Positions 9,374 to 55,895 of a DNA stretch of 64,000 nucleotides are shown piece by piece (within the stretch, counting starts at the first letter, position 1; every line of letters begins with the position of its first letter). The stretch lies in assembly GCA_963768175.1 (NCBI GenBank), contig CAVYGQ010000001.1, forward strand, positions 382,305-446,304, in the 5' to 3' direction. A program made the translations under genes and the position numbers. The notes under the pieces were generated by a model, which had not been told where the DNA came from, ran no database searches, and worked only from the letters and a program-made list of their open reading frames with translations. This DNA is from Candidatus Doudnabacteria bacterium. GTDB taxonomy: Bacteria; Patescibacteriota; Doudnabacteria; UBA920.

Positions 9374-9468
9374 CTAATGACAAAAATTAAATAAATGACA
9401 AAATTGACAAAAATAATAAGCTAAGTATTTTTTTAATTTTTGCTCATTTTCGCCATTTTTGCTCATTA
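9374..9468. repeat. family A intergenic palindromic element (aatgacaaaaattaaataaatgacaaaattgacaaaaat ... atttttgctcattttcgccatttttgctcatt)
   Basis: Inverted halves built on TGACAAAA / TTTTGCTCA units, between the kinase start and the dut stop. Confidence 0.75.
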
Positions 9469-9990: not shown

Positions 9991-10542
9991 TTCTTTTAAT
10001 TTGATTAATATTTCATCAATCTTCCCAAACAACTCCTCTAAACTTCCTTCATTCACAATCGTCCAATCCGCACGCGCTATGGGGCCGGCTTGATTTAAAT
10101 TTTCAATCTGGGATTTGTCGCGTGATTCCAGTTCTTGTGCGGAAAGCGGCCTTTGCGGCCGTTTAGCCATGCGGGCCGCGCGCGTCGAAAAAGAAGAATA
10201 TATCGCTAAAACCTTAAATGCCTGCCCAAATTCTTTTTCCATAGCCAAGGACTCTTCCCAGCTGTATAAGCTTTCTATAATAACCGATGATGTTACAAAA
10301 AATTTTTTTACGGCCAGCAAATTGGCAACTGCCATTGCGGCCATGCCGTTTTGGGATCGAAATTCTTCGCGAACTAACTTCTCGTTTGCCTCGCTTAAAG
10401 ACAAACCGCGCTTTTGAACTTCATCCAAAACAGCCTGCCCGAAATAAACTTTGGGCCAACTAGTCTTCTTAAGCAGATAATCGGTTGTTTCTGTTTTTCC
10501 GGCTCCGGCTAAACCAACCACGGCAAGAACAATATTTGACAT
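9988..10542 (-). CDS. P-loop NTPase, putative (deoxy)nucleotide/nucleoside kinase (paralog 2)
   Basis: 184 aa; P-loop VVGLAGAGKTE, and the C-terminus ADWTIVNEGSLEELFGKIDEIL is paralogous to 8809-9369. Confidence 0.45.
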   Translation of the reverse strand: MSNIVLAVVGLAGAGKTETTDYLLKKTSWPKVYFGQAVLDEVQKRGLSLSEANEKLVREEFRSQNGMAAMAVANLLAVKKFFVTSSVIIESLYSWEESLAMEKEFGQAFKVLAIYSSFSTRAARMAKRPQRPLSAQELESRDKSQIENLNQAGPIARADWTIVNEGSLEELFGKIDEILIKLKE

Positions 10543-10545
10543 AGA

Positions 10546-10642
10546 TTAAATGACAAAAATTAAATAAATGACAAAATTGACAAAAATGCAAATCAGCTAA
10601 TTTTTTAATTTTTATTATTTTTGCTCATTTTTGTCATTTCCC
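10546..10642. repeat. family A intergenic palindromic element
   Basis: taaatgacaaaaattaaataaatgacaaaattgacaaaaatgc ... atttttgctcatttttgtcatttcc. Confidence 0.75.
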
Positions 10643-11163
10643 ATTTTTACCCTGCCTTCGTTTTGGCGAACCGGTATGTCTTCGGAAAAAATCTGTCCCA
10701 ATTCCCGCTGCCATTTTGGGTTTTCGGCATAAATTTCCACTTTTACCCCGGCTTCTTTAAGCATATCCAAAGCGGCGGGGTTCCTGTAAACTTTGCCGAT
10801 GACAACTCTTTTAACGCCGGCGGCAATAACATATTTGGCGCAGTGGATGCATGGGCTGTACTTGGTATACATTGTGGAGCCGTCCGTACTGGTACCACCC
10901 TGCTTGGCCGCCTGAAGCAGCGAATTATGTTCGCCGTGGATAGTGCGCACGCAATGCCCTTCTTCCAAAAGATGCCCGACGTCGTCGCAGTGCGGCAGGC
11001 CCGGCGGCGAGCCGTTATAGCCCGTGGCGATTATGCGGTTATCTTTTACCAAAACCGAACCCGCGTACAGCCGGTCGCAGGTCCCCCTAGAAGCCACAAT
11101 TTTGACTATTGCCATGAAATAATCGTCCCAAGAAGGCCTAAAATGCTTGCGTTCTTCTACCAT
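10615..11163 (-). CDS. dCMP deaminase (ComEB/CDA fold)
   Basis: Zinc ligands HAEHNSLL and PCIHCAKYV, typical of the deoxycytidylate deaminase family. The likely start is MVEERKHF at 11163. Confidence 0.85.
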   Translation of the reverse strand: MVEERKHFRPSWDDYFMAIVKIVASRGTCDRLYAGSVLVKDNRIIATGYNGSPPGLPHCDDVGHLLEEGHCVRTIHGEHNSLLQAAKQGGTSTDGSTMYTKYSPCIHCAKYVIAAGVKRVVIGKVYRNPAALDMLKEAGVKVEIYAENPKWQRELGQIFSEDIPVRQNEGRVKMGNDKNEQK

Positions 11164-11265
11164 AGTATTAACGACAAGAATGACATGATTGGGCAAGAAT
11201 GGCAAAAATTACAAATCTAAATCGTGTCAATCTTTTAATTCTTTTAAATCTTGCTCATTTCATCT
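11164..11265. repeat. degenerate family A-like element
   Basis: gacaagaatgacatgattgggcaagaatggcaaaaatt ... tcttgctcatttcatc. Confidence 0.4.
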
Positions 11266-11354
11266 ATTCTACACCAATTTTGGCCGGTTGACAAAATCCA
11301 AAAAAACAAAAAAACCTTAATAAATTAAACAGTTTTGGACGTCTTTTATCCTTT

Positions 11355-11388
11355 TGTTGCACTTACGCCCGGCCGAGCGTAAGTGCAA
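11355..11388. promoter_or_regulatory. perfect hairpin/palindrome GTTGCACTTACGCC-CGGCCG-AGCGTAAGTGCAAC abutting the -35 of promoter P_A
   Basis: 14-bp arms; operator- or terminator-like. Confidence 0.5.
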
Positions 11389-11390
11389 CA

Positions 11391-11419
11391 GTTGACAAAA
11401 AACTTTAAATGCCTTAAAA
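11391..11419 (+). promoter_or_regulatory. near-consensus sigma70 promoter P_A (TTGACA-17-TAAAAT)
   Basis: TTGACA at 11391-11396, a 17-nt spacer, and TAAAAT at 11414-11419. Confidence 0.6.
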
Positions 11420-11427
11420 TACCCACA

Positions 11428-11505
11428 AATGAGCAAATTCATCTCTTCCAGCATAATCATTATTATTACTCCGACGCCGCTTGGCATGGGAAGAGTTTTA
11501 GTGTA
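11428..11505 (+). CDS. 25-codon leaderless ORF MSKFISSSIIIIITPTPLGMGRVLV (leader-peptide-like or small hydrophobic peptide)
   Basis: The ATG lies about 8 nt after the -10. Five consecutive Ile codons (ata atc att att att) occupy 11452-11466. Stop TAA at 11503. An intrinsic terminator follows 20 nt downstream. Confidence 0.45.
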
Positions 11506-11524
11506 AATTGATTTAAACTCCAAA

Positions 11525-11553
11525 CCCCTAGCCTAAGCGGCTAGGGGTTTTTT
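11525..11553 (+). terminator. intrinsic terminator CCCCTAGCC-taa-GCGGCTAGGGG + T6
   Basis: Stem-loop followed by TTTTTT. Confidence 0.7.
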
Positions 11554-11715
11554 GTTGATGATTTTGTAGTGTGCCGATTTATCGGCCTTCATCGATCGCC
11601 CATAAATGGGCACGCTACACTTGTGACCGGAAAGACGGCAATTTAATAAAACTGCTATCTTTGCGGCCAGAATCTGTGGCCGAATCCAAGACAAACCCAA
11701 GGAGGGCAACTAAAG

Positions 11716-12008
11716 TGAGCTGGCATATATACGACGCGACAGTAGCATCGCGGCAGGAAGATGGCACCATAGCTGTGCATTTGGTAGGCGCAGACATGGA
11801 GCCGCTCAGCATTAGCGGAACTGTGCTGATGGCAGAACGACTGACCACCATTGTGGTCCACAGCACCGTAACCGATAGCGGCAAACCGCTGTTCACTCCG
11901 CGCAACGATGTACTCTACCTTGATCCGGAATCCGGAAAGGCAGCGTACGATCCTTCCGTACTCGTTCCCGGCCTCGAGGCCGAGGAACCTTCTCTCGTAG
12001 GGGTCTGA
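11716..12008 (+). CDS. hypothetical small protein (97 aa), GC-rich (about 58%)
   Basis: GTG start 7 nt after a perfect SD AAGGAGG. Composition is foreign relative to the flanks. A terminator lies at 12039-12086. The alternative upstream GTG at 11571 lacks an SD. Confidence 0.5.
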
Positions 12009-12038
12009 TATGAAAAACCCCAAAACAGCTCTTTCTTC

Positions 12039-12086
12039 CGGCAGTCGGCGTGCTTTCAGGTCGCCGCCGACTGCCCACCCTTTTTT
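12039..12086 (+). terminator. intrinsic terminator CGGCAGTCGGCG...CGCCGCCGACTGCC + T6
   Basis: GC-rich stem followed by cacccTTTTTT. Confidence 0.7.
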
Positions 12087-12092
12087 ACAAAT

Positions 12093-12121
12093 TTGACAAA
12101 CTTTTACCAATCCTTTAATAT
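12093..12121 (+). promoter_or_regulatory. near-consensus sigma70 promoter P_B (TTGACA-17-TAATAT)
   Basis: TTGACA at 12093-12098 and TAATAT at 12116-12121. Confidence 0.6.
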
Positions 12122-12128
12122 ACCAACA

Positions 12129-12224
12129 ATGCACCGAAATAATTTAAACAATTTAAACCTCTTGCTTAGCCTCCTTACTTTTGTAAGGGGTTTTGGGCTT
12201 AGATTGCAAGCATCTCCGGTATAA
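12129..12224 (+). CDS. 31-codon leaderless ORF MHRNNLNNLNLLLSLLTFVRGFGLRLQASPV (Leu-rich leader-peptide-like)
   Basis: The ATG lies at the predicted TSS. There are 5 Leu in a 6-residue run (LLLSLL) and 3 more upstream. Stop TAA at 12222. A terminator follows 26 nt downstream. Confidence 0.45.
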   Translation: MHRNNLNNLNLLLSLLTFVRGFGLRLQASPV

Positions 12225-12250
12225 ATTTTAGGCAAATCTAATTTTCCTTA

Positions 12251-12271
12251 AGCCCCGCAAGGGGCTTTTTT
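12251..12271 (+). terminator. intrinsic terminator AGCCCC-gcaa-GGGGCT + T6
   Basis: Stem-loop followed by TTTTTT. Confidence 0.7.
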
Positions 12272-12344
12272 GTTGATAGAAAAATGTTTATCGTTTTGGT
12301 GAATATTTTTGTATCTATAAATTCTATGTTCAAGGAGGATAGAG

Positions 12345-12677
12345 GTGATACACCTAGTGGGAATTAAAGCATTCCAGAGTTACGAATCTCACGCAGAAGC
12401 TGTTTTCCTTATCGGCGGAAAGGAAGTCAGAGACACGATTACCGCAATTGACCGAATCAGCGTGAATAAAGTCAAAGGGTTCCAATTGCAGTTTGGCGCA
12501 CTGATGGTCGTGCTATTCCCCGATATTAACGGCGGTGTGGGCGCCGCCAGTGACGGCGATGAGACGCTGGAGGAATTGCAGCGCGCAATACCTCCGTTTC
12601 TCGGGACATCCGGCAACAGATACCCCAACCCGGATGACGATCCGGTTACCTGGGTCGCCGCTCGTTGCGGGATCTAA
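12345..12677 (+). CDS. hypothetical small protein (110 aa), GC-rich
   Basis: GTG start 6 nt after SD AGGAGG. A terminator lies at 12737-12779. No recognisable domain. Confidence 0.5.
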   Translation: MIHLVGIKAFQSYESHAEAVFLIGGKEVRDTITAIDRISVNKVKGFQLQFGALMVVLFPDINGGVGAASDGDETLEELQRAIPPFLGTSGNRYPNPDDDPVTWVAARCGI

Positions 12678-12736
12678 CCATACTGCTTCACCTCGCCTGC
12701 CCAAGCCCACCGGCCAAAGCAGGCAAACGCAACAAA

Positions 12737-12779
12737 GCCGGCAGACGCAAACCTACGCTGCCGGCTTCATCATTTTTTT
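12737..12779 (+). terminator. intrinsic terminator GCCGGCAG...CTGCCGGC + T7
   Basis: Stem-loop followed by ttcatcaTTTTTTT. Confidence 0.65.
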
Positions 12780-12854
12780 GAATTTCAAAAAATCATTATC
12801 AGCACTCTGTTTCACCAGCATCCCCCAAGCCAGAGACGGCGTTGAAAAAACACA

Positions 12855-13295
12855 TTAGTGAAAATTTTTAGAAAAATCCACTATTTCATAATTCGGCGGG
12901 GGGTCGCCTTTAAATAATTTTTCCTGGACAACTTTTAAAATCTCTTCAAAATTGTTCTCTGACTTTATCAAATACGCTTCTACGTTCAAACTCTTGGCCT
13001 CTTCCATTTCTTCCATACCGGAAAGGTTACTTAATACTATGACCGAAGTGTTGGCAATATTTTTGTCGGGATATTCCCGAATTCTTTTTAAAACATCCAA
13101 GCCTTTAATCTTCGGCAACAGCAAATCCAAAATTATTAATTTGGGCAAATGGAAGAGCAGTTTTTCCATTGCCTGTGAGCCGTCCTCGGCTATAGCGACT
13201 TCAAGTCCGTGTCCGGAAAGATAAGCGCTCAGGGCATTGCGAAAATCCAAATCATCCTCAATAATTAAGACTTTTTTTGAATTGTCGTCTGTCAT
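12855..13295 (-). CDS. single-domain response regulator (receiver/CheY-like)
   Basis: KVLIIEDDLDFRN, phospho-acceptor region ILDLLLPK, conserved T/S and K positions. There is no output domain. Confidence 0.85.
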   Translation of the reverse strand: MTDDNSKKVLIIEDDLDFRNALSAYLSGHGLEVAIAEDGSQAMEKLLFHLPKLIILDLLLPKIKGLDVLKRIREYPDKNIANTSVIVLSNLSGMEEMEEAKSLNVEAYLIKSENNFEEILKVVQEKLFKGDPPPNYEIVDFSKNFH

Positions 13296-13364
13296 AAAAA
13301 AAATTTAATTTTTTTAGATTACCTACCTTAGACTAAGTCACTGGCTGATGAACATTATCCGTTT

Positions 13365-13471
13365 TAGTAAACCCAGCACTAATTTTCCATCATACTCAAA
13401 TTTTTTTGTAATATATTTTGACACAAGTATTTTTCATCAAAATGTCAATTAAAGTGAAAATTAGTGCTGGG
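13365..13471. repeat. family D element: 16-bp terminal inverted repeats CCCAGCACTAATTTTC / GAAAATTAGTGCTGGG enclosing about 75 bp
   Basis: The right arm supplies the last 3 codons and the stop of the receiver gene at 13461-13895. A second copy is at 59715-59820. Confidence 0.6.
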
Positions 13472-13895
13472 TAAAATCCCACACTTCTTGGGTCTTTGCT
13501 TGGCTACTTCCAAACAAAATTTCTTTGATTTTGCCCATAACTTCTTTGGTCTTTGTCCGACTTTTAACAAAGTAGGCTAAAACGCCCATTTCCTGCCCCT
13601 TTTCAATATCGGCTTGGCTGGAGAGATTGCTCAAAATTATTACCGGCGTCTTGGCAATGTCTTCCTGCGGATAGCTTCTGATTCTTTTTAACACCTCAAA
13701 ACCGTGGACTTTTGGTAAAAGTAAATCCAAAACTACTATATCGGGATTTTGCGCCAACAGCCTTTCCATAGCCTGTTCACCGTCATCGGCTGCGCTTACG
13801 GAGAAGCCCTCAGCGGCTAAGGCGTCACGCAGGGAATTGCGAAAATCCAGATCGTCCTCAATAATTAAGATCTTTTTGAACATGTCGTCGGACAT
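13461..13895 (-). CDS. single-domain response regulator (receiver), paralog
   Basis: KILIIEDDLDFRN and VLDLLLPKVHG; paralogous to 12855-13295 and 18697-19101. Confidence 0.85.
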   Translation of the reverse strand: MSDDMFKKILIIEDDLDFRNSLRDALAAEGFSVSAADDGEQAMERLLAQNPDIVVLDLLLPKVHGFEVLKRIRSYPQEDIAKTPVIILSNLSSQADIEKGQEMGVLAYFVKSRTKTKEVMGKIKEILFGSSQAKTQEVWDFTQH

Positions 13896-14010
13896 GGCAA
13901 ATAGTGGATTACGGATAAAAAATGCAAGACTAATATCAATATACCAAAAACAGTCACGTTTTACAACGGGGCTGTTTTAACTTGCCACTTGTAACTTATC
14001 GCCCACCACC

Positions 14011-23817: not shown

Positions 23818-23912
23818 TTCAATGACAAAAATTAAAAAAATGACAAAATTGACAAAAATATACTGCAGCTAATTTTTGCTCATTTCCTTCGTTTTCGTCA
23901 TTTTTGTTCATT
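23818..23912. repeat. family A intergenic palindromic element (about 95% identical to the 24721-24815 copy)
   Basis: aatgacaaaaattaaaaaaatgacaaaattgacaaaaatatactgcagctaatttttgctcatttccttcgttttcgtcatttttgttcattt. Confidence 0.8.
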
Positions 23913-24720: not shown

Positions 24721-24815
24721 CTAATGACAAAAATTAAAAAAATGACAAAATTGACAAAAATACACTGCAGCTAATTTTTACTCATTTCCGTCGTTTTTGT
24801 CATTTTTGCTCATTT
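24721..24815. repeat. family A intergenic palindromic element
   Basis: ctaatgacaaaaattaaaaaaatgacaaaattgacaaaaatacactgcagctaatttttactcatttccgtcgtttttgtcatttttgctcattt. Confidence 0.8.
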
Positions 24816-38378: not shown

Positions 38379-40796
38379 TTACTCCAGCATCCCCTTTTGT
38401 TCCAAATGCAAAAAAATTGATGTTAAAAACTGCCTTTTGATGTCCGACTTCAAAGCTTCAAACAATTTACGGCCTTCCAAAACATAATCAATTAGCGGAT
38501 CTTCCGAGGCGTAAGAAAACAGCCCGGCTTCCTCTTTAAGCACGTCCATTAAATCCAGCTGGCTGCTCCAATTATTGTCTATAATTTCCAAAATTAAATT
38601 CTGGCCGGCCTGGTAAACTTCCGGCTCTATTTTAATTTTTAAAGCCAACTCTTCCAAAATATCCGCCAGTTTTTCCGCCGCGTTGTTTAGGACAACAGGA
38701 TCCGCCGCCTTGTAAAACGGGTTTAGCCACTCGTTTAAAACATCAGTTTTGCCATTTTTGGCAGCCAGTCCCAAAGACTGCTGAATTTCTTCCGGCTTGG
38801 CATCTACACGGAAAACTTTTAACATTTCCTCGGAAATCAGTTTGGCATCGCCGGTTTGCAAAATTTCCGCCAAAACTTCACGGATGGATTTTTTTAAAAA
38901 ACCCAAAAAGTTTGTTTCGTTCTCTAAAAGCGAATCGCGGAGCGCGTAAATATATTTTCTTTGGAACTTGGTCACGCTGTCGTATTTGTACAAATAAAGC
39001 CGGCCGTCCAAATTCTTGCTTTCCACAAAATCCTGCGCTTTTTTAAAGGCCTCGTTCAAACTTTTGCCGGAAATATATTCGTCTTCGGGAATATCGTAGG
39101 CTTCCATGGTATTGATAATTTTCTCGCTGCCGAACAACTGCATTATTTCGTCCTCCATGGAAATTAAAAATTGCGTCTCGCCCGGCTCTCCCTGCCGCCC
39201 GCTGCGGCCAATTAATTGGTCATCAATCCGCCTTGATTCGTGCCGCTCCGTGCCCAAAACGTACAACCCCCCCAAGCGCGCTACGCCCGGCCCAAGCAAA
39301 ATGTCCGTACCGCGGCCGGCCATGTTGGTGGCCACAGTTATCATCCCCTCCTGCCCGGCTTTCTGGATCTTTTCCGCTTCGGCGCGATGATCCTGGGCCG
39401 TAAGCAGCTGGTAAGAATATCCGGCTGTATCCAAAATCCCCGCCACCACGTGAGCGGTCTCCACGTTGCGCGTACCAATAAGCAAGGGCTGGCCTTTGCG
39501 TTTTATTTGCTCAATTTTTTTGACCAAACCCAAAAATTTGCCTTTTTGGGTTTTAAAAAATAAATCATTATGGTCCACGCGAATTACCGGCTGGTTAGTG
39601 GGGATTTGGATAACATCAAGCTTGTAAACCTGGTTAAATTCGTCGCGCGCCCTCATAACCGTGCCACTCATGCCGGAAAGTTTTTCGTACATGGGAAAAA
39701 AATTCTGGAAAGTAATGCTGGCCTGCGTCTTGTCGGCATCTTTGACTTTAACATGCTCTTTGGCCTCAATAGCTTGGTGCACGCCATCGGTAAACCGGCG
39801 GCCAGGTAAAACCCGCCCCGTGAATTCGTCGACGATTTCCACGCCTTCGTCGTCTATAATATAGTCGCGGTCTTTTTCAAACACCACTTTGGCTTTCAGG
39901 CAAACATCCAAATAAAACACATACATGGGATTGTCTTTGGAAAATACCGAACCGCCCAAAAGTTGTTCCACTTTATTTAAGCCCACGTCAGTCATAGCGA
40001 CCAGCTTTTGCTGGTAGTCCACCGTGTAGTCTTCATCTTCAACTAATCTTTCCGCAATTTTTGTAAACAGGTCGTAAAAATTCCGCTCCTCTTTTACCGG
40101 TTCGGCAATAATGAGCGGCGTGCGGGATTCGTCTATTAAAATACTGTCGATTTCGTCCACAATGCCAAAATACAGCGGATGCTCGGGCCGCAAAACCCGC
40201 TCGCTTCTGGAAAAAACCAAATTGTCGCGCAAATAATCAAAACCGGCTTCCTGGTTGGTAACGTAAGTAATATCGCAGGCGTAGGCTTTGCGGCGCTCGT
40301 CATTTTTCATGGTGGAGGTGACAAAACCTACGCTCAAGCCCAAAAAATTATAAAGCTTACCCATCCACTTGGCGTCGCGCTCCGCAAGATAATCGTTGGT
40401 GGTAATCAAGTGCACGCCATAACCCATTAACGCATTGATATAAACCGGCATGGTTTCGGTTAAGGTTTTGCCTTCGCCGGCCTTCATTTCCGCCACGCGG
40501 CCTGAATGGATAACCAGCCCGGCCAAAATCTGCACCGGAAAAGGCGACTGGCCCAGCACCCGGCGCGCGGCCTCGTTGACCACGGCAAAAGCCTGGACCA
40601 CCAAGCTGTCCAGGCGCTTGCCTTTTTGCAAATCATCCCTAAAAGCCAAACCGGCGAGCTTAAGCTCCTGGTCCGACCAACCTTTTAATTCCTCGCGCTC
40701 TTTTAAAACCAGCTTGACCCGGTACTCCAAACCCTCCAAAGCCCAGTTGTCTATATATCTATTAGCGCCTTCTTTTAAACTTCCTAAGATATCCAT
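38379..40796 (-). CDS. secA: preprotein translocase ATPase SecA
   Basis: 805 aa; DEAD-like motor (Walker A MKTGEGKT, DEVD Walker B at FGIVDEIDSILIDE) and the preprotein cross-linking domain. Confidence 0.93.
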   Translation of the reverse strand: MDILGSLKEGANRYIDNWALEGLEYRVKLVLKEREELKGWSDQELKLAGLAFRDDLQKGKRLDSLVVQAFAVVNEAARRVLGQSPFPVQILAGLVIHSGRVAEMKAGEGKTLTETMPVYINALMGYGVHLITTNDYLAERDAKWMGKLYNFLGLSVGFVTSTMKNDERRKAYACDITYVTNQEAGFDYLRDNLVFSRSERVLRPEHPLYFGIVDEIDSILIDESRTPLIIAEPVKEERNFYDLFTKIAERLVEDEDYTVDYQQKLVAMTDVGLNKVEQLLGGSVFSKDNPMYVFYLDVCLKAKVVFEKDRDYIIDDEGVEIVDEFTGRVLPGRRFTDGVHQAIEAKEHVKVKDADKTQASITFQNFFPMYEKLSGMSGTVMRARDEFNQVYKLDVIQIPTNQPVIRVDHNDLFFKTQKGKFLGLVKKIEQIKRKGQPLLIGTRNVETAHVVAGILDTAGYSYQLLTAQDHRAEAEKIQKAGQEGMITVATNMAGRGTDILLGPGVARLGGLYVLGTERHESRRIDDQLIGRSGRQGEPGETQFLISMEDEIMQLFGSEKIINTMEAYDIPEDEYISGKSLNEAFKKAQDFVESKNLDGRLYLYKYDSVTKFQRKYIYALRDSLLENETNFLGFLKKSIREVLAEILQTGDAKLISEEMLKVFRVDAKPEEIQQSLGLAAKNGKTDVLNEWLNPFYKAADPVVLNNAAEKLADILEELALKIKIEPEVYQAGQNLILEIIDNNWSSQLDLMDVLKEEAGLFSYASEDPLIDYVLEGRKLFEALKSDIKRQFLTSIFLHLEQKGMLE

Positions 40797-40910
40797 TTTT
40801 TATTTTAATTTCAAAATTTATTCCGTCATTTGGATAAATTATACCACAAAAAATGGATTTATGCTATAATATACTCAATCAGAAAAATTAACAAATAAGC
40901 TATAAACAAT

Positions 40911-50494: not shown

Positions 50495-51985
50495 CTACTT
50501 TGAGGCCAGATTTTGAGTTGATTCAGCCGTTCCCTCTTCGTCAAGGGAAATAACCAAAGGCGGAAATTGCCAATGGTTGAAGGTGAATCTGTCGGTCTTA
50601 CTGGCAAGCGGGCGGAATATGAGCTGAAACCTGTAGGCTCCGTAAAGCTCATGCACCGGAGGCTCACCTGTCCTGTTCTGGTATTCGCCGACATCTGCCA
50701 GTAGTCGGTACTTATGCCCCTTGTCGTCCAACAAGTAAGTCTGGGAATCGCCTGCTTTGGCCGAATAGAGGCTTTTCCTGCTCCCCCCAAAGTATTGACA
50801 GGCTACAGTCAGAAGCGTCCCCTTGTGCCCGATCCCCACCTGTTCAACCCACATACGGATGCCCTGGCCGGCGGCACCACCAACCGCACTGTTGGAAACA
50901 ACCGAAACTGGATTTGAAGTAAACCTCAGCCAGTTTGACGGCGTGTACTCAGCCGGCAATTGCGAATGCTGCAACTCTACAGGTGGGATATTGATTTGCA
51001 TCGCCAGGTCAGCGAACTGCGGGTGATGCAAAGTTAACGTCTTGACGGTGCTGACTTGCGGGATGGACGGGAAAACGAGCGCAAAACGGTAAAACTCACC
51101 GCGCGCCACCCACCGAGGTTGGTACTCCAAGGTTTTATTGTCTTCCGCCAGTCTGGTGGAAAACTCAGCCTTGTTTTCCATCAAGTCATACTTGTGACCG
51201 AGTTGGTCAGTCAGGTAGATACCACTATCGGGATACAGCCAGCCTGAACCAGGATAATCACCATCAACTGCAGTTCCTGCGCAAGCTGTATATACTAAGG
51301 TCATCCGGTCATTAACCTGGATCCCTTCTATCCACAAGTTTAGATAACCCTTGCTGCTTGGAAACCACTTGGGGCTCAAAACGAAGGGAACCCACACCAA
51401 CGGAGAGCTTTGGGCAGCCAGACGTTTTTGTTCATCCGCTTTCTTGACGATCTCCGCAGTGGCTTTTTTGAGCCGTGTCCCCGGATAGCGGGGATGGAAT
51501 TTGATGTGCGCTGGAAACAGCTCAATGGTGCCATCAGGCTGCTCATAATAGTTGAACAGCGATTCCCCGGTGTTCACATTCGCGATTTGTCCAGGATTGG
51601 GCTTGCTGACATCATACAAGACCAGGCACATCAAACAGTAAGCGACCGTAAAGACGACCACGAACTTGCGGTGCTTAAGAGTGAACAGGCTGGCCGTCAA
51701 CGCTCCTACCACAAAGTACCCGATGCCAGTCAGCAAACCGACTGTCGCTTTCAGCAGGTAGGTATCCTTAGACCATCCGGCATTCTCCAGTTCGGAGTAG
51801 ACTATGCCGTACAATCCTAACCAACCCACTATCACGACGATCACAACAACGATCCACGCGCCAACGATCACAAAACCGACAGAAGCAAACATCTGCGCGA
51901 AGGTCTTCTTAGCTTTCACCATGTAGCCGACCAGGAATCCGGCCAAAACAGCAGCCAAGATCCCAAAGAGGACTTGAAGTCCCAT
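50495..51985 (-). CDS. hypothetical GC-rich membrane protein with two repeated extracytoplasmic beta domains (DUF4352-like pattern)
   Basis: Start chosen at MGLQVLFGIL, 9 nt after AAGGAGG. It has 4 N-terminal TM helices, then two similar domains (LTDQLGHKYDLMEN and LLDDKGHKYRLLAD). About 52% GC. Confidence 0.5.
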   Translation of the reverse strand: MGLQVLFGILAAVLAGFLVGYMVKAKKTFAQMFASVGFVIVGAWIVVVIVVIVGWLGLYGIVYSELENAGWSKDTYLLKATVGLLTGIGYFVVGALTASLFTLKHRKFVVVFTVAYCLMCLVLYDVSKPNPGQIANVNTGESLFNYYEQPDGTIELFPAHIKFHPRYPGTRLKKATAEIVKKADEQKRLAAQSSPLVWVPFVLSPKWFPSSKGYLNLWIEGIQVNDRMTLVYTACAGTAVDGDYPGSGWLYPDSGIYLTDQLGHKYDLMENKAEFSTRLAEDNKTLEYQPRWVARGEFYRFALVFPSIPQVSTVKTLTLHHPQFADLAMQINIPPVELQHSQLPAEYTPSNWLRFTSNPVSVVSNSAVGGAAGQGIRMWVEQVGIGHKGTLLTVACQYFGGSRKSLYSAKAGDSQTYLLDDKGHKYRLLADVGEYQNRTGEPPVHELYGAYRFQLIFRPLASKTDRFTFNHWQFPPLVISLDEEGTAESTQNLASK

Positions 51986-52152
51986 GTTGTGTTTCCTCCT
52001 TTTCCTTTCTTTTACAAGACAACCCTCAGCCAGCAATTTGACTAGGGGTTGTTCTTGTGTTTCTGCCTTTAACATAAGAGCATTTTATGGTTTTGTCAAG
52101 CCTCTTTCAATTACCGCAACAAGGTTTGATATTTATAAAAATTGTCGGAATT

Positions 52153-55497: not shown

Positions 55498-55538
55498 TTG
55501 GACTTTACACCGGTTGCCCATACCATTATAATATAACC

Positions 55539-55895
55539 ATGAGAACTACTCAACGAAAAGGAGACATAGCCGTTTCTCAAGCCATTGCCACTTTTACAAA
55601 GATGGGGTTTGATGTGGCATTGCCGATTACCGAATCAGCGGCTTATGACATGATTGTGGATACCCCTGAGGGACTTAAAAGAGTCCAAGTTAGATACACG
55701 AGTGGCAAAGAAGTTGATTTAAGAAGGATACATTCAAATTCCGCTGGTTATGTTGTTAAAAAATCTAAAGAAAATGCCTATGATTGGCTATTTGTCTTAA
55801 AAAATACTGGGGAAGAATATTTACTTAAGGCTTGCCTGTACGGGAGACGGTCAATAACCCCAACAGCCCAATATTTACTCAAAGCTACCCAATAA
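55539..55895 (+). CDS. hypothetical protein with Hjc-like / PD-(D/E)XK nuclease-like pattern
   Basis: 118 aa; KGDIAVSQAIATFTKMGFDVALPITESAAYDMIVDT...RVQVRY resembles the archaeal Hjc or NucS-type core, but with QxR in place of ExK. It lies directly upstream of a tRNA pair. Confidence 0.3.
   Translation: MRTTQRKGDIAVSQAIATFTKMGFDVALPITESAAYDMIVDTPEGLKRVQVRYTSGKEVDLRRIHSNSAGYVVKKSKENAYDWLFVLKNTGEEYLLKACLYGRRSITPTAQYLLKATQ

What the first reader, a model, noticed from the sequence alone, without database searches (positions are those of the whole stretch)
12093..12271. Second unit of the same design: promoter, leaderless 31-codon Leu-rich ORF and terminator (Leu-attenuator-like)
Seen in sequence: TTGACA(12093)-17-TAATAT(12116), with an ATG at 12129, 8 nt after the -10. 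The ORF encodes MHRNNLNNLNLLLSLLTFVRGFGLRLQASPV: five Leu in the six-residue run LLLSLL plus three more Leu just upstream. Stop is at 12222. The intrinsic terminator AGCCCC-gcaa-GGGGCT + T6 lies 26 nt later. A GTG-start gene with AGGAGG follows at 12345. Established knowledge: this is the same logic as the E. coli leu leader. Two adjacent units with different amino-acid runs, Ile then Leu, make chance unlikely. Inference: this is either branched-chain-amino-acid-responsive attenuation of two unknown GC-rich genes, or a pair of small hydrophobic peptide genes.
Basis: partly seen in the sequence, partly recalled or inferred. Interest (0 to 1): 0.75.

Follow-up and report, generated by a model that had tools for sequence, protein, structure and literature searches.

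The report
Leaderless leucine-sensing transcription attenuator in Doudnabacteria
This is most likely a classical leader-peptide transcription attenuator (a leucine-codon-rich mini-gene that decides whether RNA polymerase stops at a terminator), one of a family of isoleucine, leucine and lysine/threonine sensors in tiny symbiotic CPR bacteria, where unusually they mostly control small proteins of unknown function.

Summary
The described features are all present: a near-consensus promoter, an ATG at the predicted transcription start, a 31-codon ORF with LLLSLL, a strong terminator, then an AGGAGG/GTG gene.

The window is from a Candidatus Doudnabacteria (CPR) genome. About 25 distinct units of the same design occur in related genomes, always in the island beside the dCMP deaminase gene. 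They fall into three classes: Ile, Leu and Lys/Thr.

- **Leu class:** it is kept in six other genomes. In three genomes including the window it precedes the same rare small protein family.
- **Structure:** in every Leu-class unit folded, a ribosome placed on the Leu run frees a segment that pairs with the terminator's 5' arm. In the window this antiterminator is -18.7 kcal/mol against -13.0 for the terminator. A ribosome further on masks that segment.
- **Controls:** family terminators have far more such upstream pairing than 336 ordinary terminators. The spacers lack promoters.
- **Pathway link:** one Ile-class unit precedes ridA-ilvA, which ties the family to amino-acid control.

Verdict: a ribosome-mediated, leaderless Leu attenuator. 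The mechanism is classical; the lineage, the tandem array and the orphan small-protein cargo are new. All evidence is computational.

The parts
12093..12121 (+). Sigma-70-type promoter of unit 2: -35 TTGACA (12093-12098), 17-nt spacer, -10 TAATAT (12116-12121). The predicted start site is 12128 or 12129.
   Evidence: 10 of 12 matches. The promoter is conserved in the L162 ortholog. All family members have TTGACA with 0-2 mismatches of 12 in total.
12129..12224 (+). Leaderless 31-codon leader ORF, MHRNNLNNLNLLLSLLTFVRGFGLRLQASPV, with its stop codon.
   Evidence: There is no room for a Shine-Dalgarno sequence. The L162 ortholog keeps the frame, the 31-codon length and the stop position despite two compensating in-frame indels.
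12159..12176 (+). Regulatory Leu run, CTC TTG CTT AGC CTC CTT (LLLSLL, codons 11-16).
   Evidence: The run is conserved in 7 Leu-class leaders. CTC and CTT make up 36 of 61 Leu codons in these leaders, against 20% of Leu codons in the window's genes.
12149..12178 (+). Segment 1 (anti-antiterminator, 5' arms): CAAUUUAAACCU (12149-12160) and AGCCUCCUUAC (12168-12178). It overlaps the Leu codons.
   Evidence: In the minimum-free-energy fold without a ribosome, these pair with segment 2.
12183..12207 (+). Segment 2: GUAAGGGGUUUUGGGCUUAGAUUGC. It pairs either with segment 1 or with segment 3.
   Evidence: The segment is almost invariant between the window and L162.
12232..12256 (+). Segment 3: GCAAAUCUAAUUUUCCUUAAGCCCC. 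Its 3' end (12250-12256) is the 5' arm of the terminator.
   Evidence: With the ribosome A site on Leu codons 12-16, the nascent RNA folds into a segment 2:3 antiterminator of about -19 to -20 kcal/mol; -18.7 with the A site on codons 15-16.
12250..12271 (+). Intrinsic terminator: AAGCCCC, GCAA loop, GGGGCUU and a run of six U.
   Evidence: The hairpin is -13.0 kcal/mol and is conserved in L162 with a different loop.
12269..12321 (+). Conserved AU-rich hairpin in the spacer (12269-12292 pairs with 12298-12321). Its role is unknown.
   Evidence: RNAalifold on the window, L162 and L163 gives 23 pairs, three of them with changes on both sides.
12333..12677 (+). Cargo gene: AGGAGG (12333-12338) and GTG 12345, encoding a 110-aa protein of unknown function.
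   Evidence: Only two homologs exist among 1.8 billion representative proteins (P0002 at 44% and P0003 at 36% identity). Both lie in the syntenic island behind a Leu-class leader. There is no Pfam, NCBIfam or PHROG match and no fold match.
12737..12779 (+). Inverted repeat GCCGGCAG...CTGCCGGC followed by a T-rich tail: the probable terminator of the cargo gene.
   Evidence: Read in the sequence. The 13-nt loop put it outside the limits of the scan.
11392..11556 (+). Unit 1, the sister Ile-class unit: TTGACA 11392, TAAAAT ending at 11420, ATG 11429, MSKFISSSIIIIITPTPLGMGRVLV, terminator 11522-11550 plus a T run.
   Evidence: Orthologs occur in L162, L082, L003, L002 and L163. The window and L162 differ at 4 bases, all at third codon positions and all synonymous.
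11715..12086 (+). Cargo gene of unit 1: GTG 11715, 97 aa, ending at 12008. Its own terminator follows: GGCAGTCGGCG 12040-12050 and CGCCGACTGCC 12065-12075, then CACCCTTTTTT.
   Evidence: It has no Pfam match and no homolog in the fetched loci.

Best explanation
Window 12093-12677 is one self-contained transcription unit governed by a ribosome-mediated transcription attenuator.

1. **Start.** Transcription starts at or one base before the ATG at 12129, so the 31-codon leader ORF is translated from a leaderless mRNA.
2. **Leu-tRNA plentiful.** The ribosome passes the Leu run (codons 11-16, mostly CUY) and covers segment 2 (12183-12207) while RNA polymerase makes the terminator. If the leader is not translated, segment 2 is instead held by segment 1 (12149-12178). 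Either way the terminator (12250-12271) forms and a roughly 140-nt transcript is released.
3. **Leu-tRNA scarce.** The ribosome stalls on the run. This melts segment 1 and leaves segment 2 free to pair with segment 3 (12232-12256), which contains the terminator's 5' arm. Polymerase reads through into the AGGAGG/GTG gene at 12345, which encodes a 110-aa protein of unknown function.

Shown here by computation: the parts, their conservation, the alternative pairings and their register with the Leu codons, and the absence of a second promoter. Inferred: the start site, translation of the ORF, termination, the response to leucine, and what the cargo protein does.
For: **A lineage-wide family with three classes**
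- About 25 distinct units of the design (TTGACA promoter, ATG at the start site, ORF of 16-43 codons, terminator, spacer, strong Shine-Dalgarno sequence, small gene) occur in Doudnabacteria-type loci. All sit beside the dCMP deaminase gene.
- The peptides fall into Ile, Leu and Lys/Thr classes.
- A promoter-agnostic scan recovers almost only these units: 16 of 18 hits.

**Leu class conserved and linked to its cargo**
- LLLSLL-type runs occur in 7 genomes.
- The only two homologs of the 110-aa cargo in 1.8 billion proteins each sit behind a Leu-class leader in the same island.
- Conservation between the window and L162 peaks on segments 1-2, segment 3, the terminator arms and the promoter. The N- and C-terminal codons of the ORF and the terminator loop vary. 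Frame and length are kept.

**Structure of the window unit**
- Without a ribosome, the 1:2 stems and the terminator form (-36.6 kcal/mol).
- With the A site on Leu codons 12-16, a 2:3 antiterminator forms at about -19 to -20 kcal/mol (-18.7 on codons 15-16), against -13.0 for the terminator.
- With the A site at codon 20 or later, or at the stop, the terminator arm is free.
- The same three states are predicted in L162, L007, L060 and L095 despite different sequences.

**Register with the run across the family**
- Pairing of the terminator's 5' arm with upstream RNA is high while the A site is on or before the run. It collapses 1-5 codons after the run ends in 22 of 24 units.

**Controls**
- Pairing gain against dinucleotide shuffles: mean z = -3.2, and 23 of 24 units below -1.65.
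- Against 336 ordinary terminators from the same loci: median gain -8.4 against -2.5 kcal/mol, Mann-Whitney p = 9e-10.
- The window unit lies at the 4th-7th percentile of the ordinary terminators; its L162 ortholog is stronger than every one of them.

**No promoter in the spacers**
- Leader promoters have 0-2 mismatches of 12. The best match in the spacers has a median of 5, and only 1 of 22 has 3 or fewer.

**Functional anchor**
- In L007 an Ile-class leader and terminator directly precede ridA and a threonine dehydratase with its regulatory domain (ilvA), the entry step to isoleucine synthesis.

**Signs of translation**
- The window and L162 versions of unit 1 differ at 4 bases, all synonymous third positions. 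Indels in the runs are in frame.
- At least three long genes in the window also have an ATG 5-6 nt after a -10 hexamer, so leaderless initiation looks normal in this genome.

**Codon bias**
- CUY codons are 59% of Leu codons in Leu-class leaders and 20% genome-wide.
Against: - **No experimental data.** The start site, termination and translation are predictions.
- **The window unit alone is modest.** In the shuffle test it gives z = -1.39, p = 0.09. With only 50 nt of upstream RNA the pairing gain vanishes, because segment 2 lies further away.
- **Subjective step.** I assigned the run ends by eye from the peptides.
- **Non-independence.** Many family members are orthologs, so the pooled statistics overstate the number of independent observations.
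- **No covariation test.** No formal test was possible for the Leu class: there are 7 divergent sequences, and any structure-guided alignment would be circular.
- **Cargo unrelated to leucine.** The cargo has no known link to leucine, and cargo genes differ between genomes.
- **No obvious need.** CPR bacteria are generally thought to lack amino-acid biosynthesis (background knowledge), so the physiological purpose is unclear.
- **Membrane-like peptides in two genomes.** The Leu-class peptides of L163 and L090 are long enough (18-22 hydrophobic residues) to be membrane helices.
- **Codon bias has another explanation.** The CUY bias could simply reflect pairing of the run with the G-rich segment 2.
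Confidence: 0.7

Rival explanations
1. It is a stand-alone gene for a small hydrophobic (membrane or toxin-like) peptide with its own promoter and terminator. The 110-aa gene is transcribed separately.
For: - The unit has a strong promoter and a strong terminator.
- The peptide is Leu-rich. The versions in L163 and L090 have 18-22 hydrophobic residues, enough for a membrane helix.
- The unit 1 peptides are identical between the window and L162 despite 4 base changes.
Against: - The hydrophobic stretch in the window is about 11 residues, too short to span a membrane.
- The sister classes of the same design encode IIIII-type or Lys/Thr-rich peptides that are not membrane-like.
- Outside the run the peptide sequence drifts freely: window against L003, 0 synonymous and 8 non-synonymous codon changes.
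- No promoter-like site precedes the cargo genes.
- No antisense promoter lies within the unit.
- The terminator's 5' arm has a conserved alternative partner, which a plain gene terminator lacks.
Confidence: 0.1
2. It is mainly a gene for a trans-acting small RNA of about 140 nt running from promoter to terminator. The ORF is incidental, or both coding and regulatory. This is not exclusive of attenuation: compare rnTrpL, which is released by the Sinorhizobium trp attenuator.
For: - The promoter-to-terminator unit has the size of a small RNA.
- Conservation between the window and L162 follows RNA segments rather than the whole peptide.
- Attenuator-derived small RNAs are documented (PMC6614838).
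Against: - There is no Rfam match.
- Frame, length, ATG position and in-frame indels are conserved.
- The amino-acid runs are class-specific, and one Ile-class unit sits before ridA-ilvA.
- The fold of unit 2 is not unusually stable for its composition (z = -1.3).
Confidence: 0.1
3. It is a translation-independent RNA switch (a riboswitch, T-box or protein-mediated antiterminator), or a drug- or peptide-specific ribosome-stalling leader of the erm/cat type, rather than an amino-acid sensor.
For: Alternative terminator and antiterminator folds are common to all these mechanisms.
Against: - No T-box, riboswitch or leader family of Rfam matches, even at E up to 10.
- The switch point of the antiterminator tracks the end of the amino-acid run in 22 of 24 units, whatever their sequence.
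- There are three classes with different runs, and one is linked to ilvA.
Confidence: 0.05

Closest known systems
Corynebacterium glutamicum ilvBNC attenuator (leader peptide IlvL, translated without a ribosome-binding site)
   Same: - The start site is one nucleotide from the leader start codon, so the leader peptide is made from a leaderless mRNA.
- The leader peptide is rich in branched-chain amino-acid codons.
- It uses terminator, antiterminator and anti-antiterminator hairpins.
- A short terminated transcript is produced, and a long spacer precedes the first structural gene (PMC11857589, which cites Morbach et al. 2000).
   Different: - There the cargo is the acetohydroxyacid synthase/isomeroreductase operon of an organism that makes these amino acids. 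Here the cargo is a 110-aa orphan protein in a CPR bacterium.
- There is no sequence similarity.
- Here several single-amino-acid sensors stand in tandem, in place of one mixed Ile/Val/Leu leader.
E. coli / Salmonella leu operon leader (leuL), and the ilvGMEDA and thr leaders
   Same: - A run of Leu codons in a peptide of about 30 residues, followed by Gly/Arg codons that form the G-rich segment pairing with the terminator's C-rich arm.
- The four-segment logic and the use of uncommon Leu codons.
- From memory, not tested here: leuL ends ...LLLLNAFIVRGRPVGGIQH, which resembles LLLSLLTFVRGFG here.
   Different: - The enterobacterial leaders have a 5' untranslated region with a Shine-Dalgarno sequence and control biosynthetic operons.
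- No Rfam leader family matched this region at its gathering score. Below threshold, only Phe_leader (18.8 bits against 55) and rnk_leader (about 18 bits against 50) appeared, as chance-level hits around unit 1.
- Any similarity is probably convergent.
Mycobacterial polycysteine leaderless short ORFs (the 'Cys ribulon')
   Same: Leaderless short sensor ORFs with a run of one amino acid, found at several loci, giving a collective response through ribosome pausing (10.1101/834739).
   Different: [quoted passage not shown] Here a canonical intrinsic terminator is the target.
- Those control cysteine-metabolism genes.
Sinorhizobium meliloti trpL / rnTrpL
   Same: An attenuator whose terminated leader RNA (and peptide) also acts in trans (PMC6614838, PMC7298713). 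This is a possible second role for the abundant terminated transcript predicted here.
   Different: Nothing here gives evidence for trans targets. The amino acid and the lineage also differ.

Membership tests
Ribosome-mediated (leader-peptide) transcription attenuators | A short ORF at the 5' end of the transcript with clustered codons for the regulatory amino acid. | tested here: met
   The 31-codon ORF has LLLSLL and 9 Leu in all. The run is conserved in 7 genomes. Run-bearing short ORFs that end just before terminators are almost exclusive to this family.
Ribosome-mediated (leader-peptide) transcription attenuators | An intrinsic terminator between the leader ORF and the first structural gene. 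| tested here: met
   AAGCCCC-GCAA-GGGGCTT plus six T at 12250-12271, -13.0 kcal/mol. The gene starts at 12345.
Ribosome-mediated (leader-peptide) transcription attenuators | An antiterminator that uses the terminator's 5' arm and excludes the terminator. | tested here: met
   Segment 2 (12183-12207) pairs with segment 3 (12232-12256) at -18.7 kcal/mol. The pairing gain lies at the 4th-7th percentile of 336 control terminators. Against shuffles it is only z = -1.39 for this unit, but the family mean is z = -3.2. This is prediction only.
Ribosome-mediated (leader-peptide) transcription attenuators | An anti-antiterminator (1:2) whose 5' arm overlaps the regulatory codons. A ribosome stalled on them frees segment 2; a ribosome further on masks it. 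| tested here: met
   Segments 12149-12160 and 12168-12178 pair with segment 2 in the fold without a ribosome. Arm pairing is 0.7-0.9 with the A site up to codon 19 and falls to 0.1-0.4 after it. The same register holds in 22 of 24 family units.
Ribosome-mediated (leader-peptide) transcription attenuators | The structural gene has no promoter of its own and is expressed by read-through. | tested here: inconclusive
   No sigma-70-like site lies in 12272-12344. Across the family the best spacer match has a median of 5 mismatches, against 0-2 for the leader promoters. Consensus scans cannot exclude other promoter types, so transcript mapping is needed.
Ribosome-mediated (leader-peptide) transcription attenuators | The controlled genes act in the metabolism or use of the sensed amino acid. 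| tested here: not met
   The cargo of this unit has no recognisable function. The feature is met by one Ile-class member of the same family, which precedes ridA-ilvA in L007. It is typical of the class rather than mechanistically required.
Ribosome-mediated (leader-peptide) transcription attenuators | Read-through rises when the cognate aminoacyl-tRNA is scarce. | not testable with these tools
   This needs an experiment: a reporter, a coupled in-vitro transcription-translation system, or metatranscriptomes.
Rfam leader families (Leu, Thr, His, Trp, Phe leaders), T-box, riboswitches | A match to the covariance model at or above its gathering score. | tested here: not met
   Nothing in 11100-12900 reaches a gathering score. 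The best leader-family hit is Phe_leader on the opposite strand, 18.8 bits against 55.
Leaderless mRNA | The transcript starts at, or within a base or two of, the start codon, with no Shine-Dalgarno sequence. | tested here: inconclusive
   The ATG lies 7 nt after the -10 hexamer, and 6-10 nt in all family members. Three long genes in the window have the same geometry. The start site itself has not been mapped.
Type I toxin / small membrane peptide genes | A hydrophobic stretch long enough to span a membrane, and an overlapping antisense RNA gene. | tested here: not met
   The hydrophobic stretch is about 11 residues. No promoter-like site lies on the minus strand within 12093-12271. The L163 and L090 versions are long enough, so this is not excluded for those two.

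The most novel reading that the evidence does not exclude
In Doudnabacteria the classical amino-acid attenuator has been separated from biosynthesis and reused as a nutrient-sensing module. A conserved island carries two or three independent leaderless sensors (Lys/Thr, Ile, Leu). Each drives a different, fast-evolving, lineage-specific small protein that tends to be poor in the sensed amino acid. This would be a starvation-triggered 'ribulon', through which an amino-acid-auxotrophic episymbiont reads what its host supplies and answers with small effector or stress proteins.
Probability: 0.3. Interest if true: 0.8.

Novelty: new variant of a known kind. Interest (0 to 1): 0.6.

Why it matters
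Leader-peptide attenuation is textbook biology, and leaderless versions are known in Actinobacteria. I found no report of it in CPR/Patescibacteria in the searchable literature. These organisms are thought to have little regulatory capacity and little or no amino-acid biosynthesis.

- **A sensing mechanism.** If real, these units show that such bacteria monitor the charging of specific tRNAs (Ile, Leu, Lys/Thr).
- **A handle on unknown proteins.** The units mark a set of unknown small proteins as starvation-induced. That gives a concrete experimental handle on how an obligate symbiont senses nutrients supplied by its host.
- **Leaderless translation.** The units are a clean natural example that leaderless translation operates in this lineage.
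- **Annotation.** They form a compact sensor family that annotation pipelines currently miss: none of the leader ORFs was called as a gene.

Tried and rejected
- **Known RNA families.** Rfam at gathering scores over the whole window, and at E up to 10 over 11100-12900, gave only chance-level hits in the region. There are no tRNA or tmRNA genes nearby.
- **Overall stability of unit 2.** The fold is not unusual for its composition (z = -1.3). The signal is in the alternative pairings, not in total stability.
- **Function of the 110-aa cargo.**
  - No Pfam, NCBIfam or PHROG family matches.
  - The word-indexed search found only the protein itself. Exhaustive phmmer found two real homologs and two repeat-protein artefacts. 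A profile search added nothing.
- **The two cargo proteins of the window.** They are unrelated to each other.
- **Other cargo proteins.** Cargo proteins of other genomes are mostly unrelated to one another, so cargo cannot be used to define the family.
- **First antiterminator tests.**
  - The first shuffle test fixed the A site at codon 10 and gave no signal for the window unit (z = 0.15), because hairpin 1b:2 can still form there. It was repeated with the A site at the end of the run.
  - A fixed 50-nt upstream window missed segment 2 in the window, L162 and L163. It was repeated with 65 and 75 nt.
- **A possible 'unit 0'.** The ORF 11199-11291 encodes MAKITNLNRVNLLILLNLAHFIYSTPILAG, which resembles the Leu peptides. 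It has no proper promoter or terminator and overlaps the divergent promoter of the deaminase operon, so I rejected it as a functional unit.
- **Covariation test for the Leu class.** I did not attempt one: 7 divergent sequences cannot be aligned without imposing the structure.
Full report
**Observation**

- Promoter: TTGACA 12093-12098, 17 nt, TAATAT 12116-12121.
- ORF: ATG 12129, 31 codons encoding MHRNNLNNLNLLLSLLTFVRGFGLRLQASPV, stop at 12222-12224.
- Terminator: AAGCCCC-GCAA-GGGGCTT with six T at 12250-12271.
- Downstream gene: AGGAGG 12333-12338 and GTG 12345, opening a 110-codon ORF that ends at 12677.

There are two minor corrections. The ATG begins 7 nt after the -10 hexamer, which puts the predicted start site at 12128 or 12129. 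Two Leu, not three, precede LLLSLL. The promoter is one of the two best matches in 10500-14000; the other belongs to unit 1 at 11392.

**Context**

The window comes from a Candidatus Doudnabacteria (CPR/Patescibacteria) genome. The adjacent dCMP deaminase is 88% identical to those of Doudnabacteria genomes, and the cargo protein is recorded on a 949-kb contig. Units 1 and 2 form a plus-strand island (about 11390-12780) inside a long run of minus-strand genes. The island lies between the deaminase operon and two response-regulator genes. Each unit is self-contained: promoter, short ORF, terminator, spacer, strong Shine-Dalgarno sequence, small gene and a second terminator.

**A family in related genomes**

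I fetched 160 loci around deaminase homologs and two further loci through cargo homologs. I scanned them for a TTGACA promoter, an ATG 4-10 nt after the -10 hexamer, a 10-60 codon ORF and a terminator. This gave about 25 distinct units. All are in close relatives (roughly 80% deaminase identity or more), and all lie in the island beside the deaminase gene.

The peptides fall into three classes.
- **Ile:** MSKFISSSIIIIITPTPLGMGRVLV, MQKIYSSSIIISIIIPSPLG..., MSKLRSIISIIIIEIPSL... and others.
- **Leu:** the window's peptide, plus
  - L162 MPNISKNLNLLLNLLLTFVRGFGFRLLPTLA
  - L007 MHKFSSTNLNLSLLLTLRKGLWFCA
  - L060 MKNIYQNLLSLLLSLISSREFGF...
  - L095 MSFYSAKISLLLSLLLTQFGRRFGL...
  - longer forms in L163 and L090.
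- **Lys/Thr:** ...IIKSTTKTTMKS..., ...SKKTTKMGTKSIKS..., ...STTKAMKKAAKS...

Genomes carry two or three units in tandem. A scan that ignored promoters looked for short ORFs with at least 5 of 7 identical residues ending just before any of 433 terminators. It returned 18 distinct ORFs. Sixteen are family members, and every one of them has the promoter with the ATG at the start site.

**Link between leader and cargo**

The 110-aa protein is nearly an orphan. An exhaustive phmmer search of 1.8 billion representatives found only two true homologs, P0002 (44% identity) and P0003 (36%). A profile search added none. Both homologs are encoded in the syntenic island, and each is preceded by a Leu-class leader and terminator.

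The window and L162 align along the whole unit.
- Nearly invariant: the promoter, the block TAAACCTCTTGCTTAGCCTC...CTTACTTTTGTAAGGGGTTTTGGGCTTAGATTGC, the block GCAAATCTAATTTT and the terminator arms.
- Variable: the first 8 and last 6 codons of the ORF and the terminator loop.
- Kept: the reading frame, the 31-codon length and the stop position, despite two compensating in-frame indels.

**Structure of the window unit**

Folding gives the three states of an attenuator.
- **No ribosome.** Two stems pair the region of the Leu codons with segment 2. The pairings are 12149-12160 with 12195-12206, and 12168-12178 with 12183-12192. The terminator forms as well (-36.6 kcal/mol in total).
- **A site on Leu codons 12-16.** The transcript is folded only up to the terminator loop. 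Segment 2 (12187-12207) pairs with segment 3 (12232-12256), which includes the terminator's 5' arm AAGCCCC. The energy is about -19 to -20 kcal/mol (-18.7 on codons 15-16), against -13.0 for the terminator hairpin.
- **A site at codon 20 or later, or at the stop.** Segment 2 is covered and the terminator arm is unpaired.

L162, L007, L060 and L095 give the same three states with different sequences.

**Register and controls**

Across 24 family units, the probability that the terminator's 5' arm pairs with upstream RNA stays high while the A site is on or before the run. It collapses 1-5 codons after the run ends in 22 units.

| Test | Result |
|---|---|
| Pairing gain against dinucleotide shuffles, family | mean z = -3.2; 23 of 24 units below -1.65 |
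| Pairing gain against dinucleotide shuffles, window unit 2 (weakest) | z = -1.39, p = 0.09 |
| 29 leader terminators against 336 other terminators from the same loci, 65 nt upstream | median gain -8.4 against -2.5 kcal/mol; Mann-Whitney p = 9e-10 |
| Window unit 2 among those controls | 4th percentile with 65 nt, 7th with 75 nt |
| L162 ortholog among those controls | stronger than every control |

Caveats apply. I chose the run ends by eye, members are phylogenetically related, and an earlier version of each test missed the signal for understandable reasons.

**Read-through is required**

The leader promoters have 0-2 mismatches to the consensus. The best match in the spacers between terminator and cargo gene has a median of 5 mismatches, and only 1 of 22 spacers has a site with 3 or fewer. 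None was found in 12272-12344.

**Functional anchor**

In L007 an Ile-class leader (MSSKLQNSIIISIITSLHES) and its terminator are followed after about 38 nt by two genes.
- ridA (PF01042, E = 5e-43).
- A 432-aa threonine dehydratase with the C-terminal regulatory domain (PF00291 and PF00585).

Threonine dehydratase is the first step towards isoleucine and a classical attenuation target. RidA acts on its enamine product (established knowledge). This ties the family to amino-acid-responsive control. In the other genomes the cargo is a small protein (44-129 aa) with no Pfam, NCBIfam or PHROG family, and cargo differs between lineages.

**Evidence of translation**
- The unit 1 ORFs of the window and L162 differ at four bases, all synonymous third positions including the stop codon.
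- Indels in the runs are multiples of three.
- More distant orthologs change many residues but keep the run, frame and length, as expected when only the regulatory codons and the ribosome's path matter.
- Three long genes in the window (55539-55895; 50495-52075 and 38379-40796 on the minus strand) have an ATG 5-6 nt after a -10 hexamer. Leaderless initiation therefore seems ordinary in this genome.
- Leu codons in Leu-class leaders are 59% CUY, against 20% in the window's genes. This fits sensing of one tRNA-Leu isoacceptor, but pairing constraints could also explain it.

**Comparison with known systems**

The mechanism matches classical leader-peptide attenuation.
- **Closest described case:** the C. 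glutamicum ilvBNC attenuator. Its leader peptide starts one nucleotide from the start site and works through terminator, antiterminator and anti-antiterminator hairpins (PMC11857589).
- **Mycobacterial polycysteine leaderless short ORFs:** also sensors, but they act on ribosome-binding-site access, not on termination (10.1101/834739).
- **Rfam:** no Rfam leader family matches at its gathering score.
- **Literature:** searches returned nothing on attenuators or leader peptides in CPR/Patescibacteria.

What differs is the lineage, the tandem array of single-amino-acid sensors in one conserved island, and the small orphan proteins as cargo.

**Verdict**

I put 0.7 on a ribosome-mediated, leaderless, Leu-responsive transcription attenuator controlling the 110-aa gene. 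The rivals are much less likely:
- a stand-alone hydrophobic peptide gene;
- a primarily trans-acting small RNA;
- a translation-independent switch.

A second role for the terminated RNA cannot be excluded. Everything rests on sequence analysis and folding. Start-site and 3'-end mapping, ribosome profiling and Leu-limitation reporter tests would decide the matter.

Noticed in passing
L007:3968-5885 (minus strand): An Ile-class leaderless leader and terminator are followed by ridA and a full-length regulatory-type threonine dehydratase (ilvA). This is an isoleucine-pathway operon under an Ile-codon leader in a Patescibacteria genome.
   Followed up: partly
L002:5943, L005:397, L009:5860, L011:5859, L060:5415, L084:6372, L087:7794, L092:619, L163:137: A third class of the same design has Lys/Thr-rich leader peptides (with some Met, Ser and Ala), for example MNLISSQIIKSTTKTTMKSLFGFGKAS. 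It has the strongest predicted antiterminators in the family (z = -4 to -6). The window itself has no such unit.
   Followed up: partly
window 12269-12321; L162 about 2258-2320; L163 about 2326-2398: A conserved AU-rich hairpin of about 23 bp lies between the terminator and the Shine-Dalgarno sequence of the 110-aa gene family. It starts inside the terminator's U tract and has three pairs changed on both sides. Its role is unknown; it might affect mRNA stability, processing or a second layer of control.
   Followed up: partly
cargo genes: window 11715-12008 and 12345-12677, and their counterparts in L002-L163: Cargo proteins tend to be poor in the amino acid their leader senses. Ile-class cargo has 4.1% Ile against a background of 7.1%, and Leu-class cargo has 6.9% Leu against 9.8%. 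Each is normal for the other residue. Lys/Thr cargo does not follow the pattern. The sample is small and not independent.
   Followed up: partly
window 9395-9412, 10568-10585, 23840-23857, 24742-24759 (minus strand): There are four identical copies of TTTTGTCAATTTTGTCAT (a tandem TTGTCA, -35-like) in intergenic regions upstream of minus-strand genes. With two looser matches that makes 6, against 0.16 expected by chance. It is possibly a shared promoter or operator motif.
   Followed up: partly
window 11355-11390: A perfect 13-bp inverted repeat, GTTGCACTTACGC-N8-GCGTAAGTGCAAC, has no T tract on either strand. It lies in a stretch of about 100 nt that separates unit 1's promoter from a second TTGACA at 11289. 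In L003 the Ile unit's promoter directly follows the conserved ttctacaccaattt motif. This looks like an insertion.
   Followed up: no
window 11199-11291 (plus strand): This ORF encodes MAKITNLNRVNLLILLNLAHFIYSTPILAG, which resembles the Leu-class peptides (NLN..NLL.LL). It lacks a proper promoter and terminator and overlaps the divergent promoter of the deaminase operon. It is probably chance or a decayed unit.
   Followed up: partly
window 55504-55895 (+), 50495-52110 (-), 38379-40829 (-): Long genes of 118, 526 and 805 aa have an ATG 5-6 nt after a good -10 hexamer. This suggests that leaderless mRNAs are common in this genome. Only 8 of 47 long ORFs have a Shine-Dalgarno-like motif before their first ATG, whereas the island's cargo genes have strong AGGAGG sites.
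   Followed up: partly
window 12855-13295 and 13461-13895 (minus strand): Two tandem stand-alone response-regulator receiver genes (146 and 144 aa) flank the island. The same neighbours are present in L002, L003, L007 and L162. No kinase was seen nearby.
   Followed up: no
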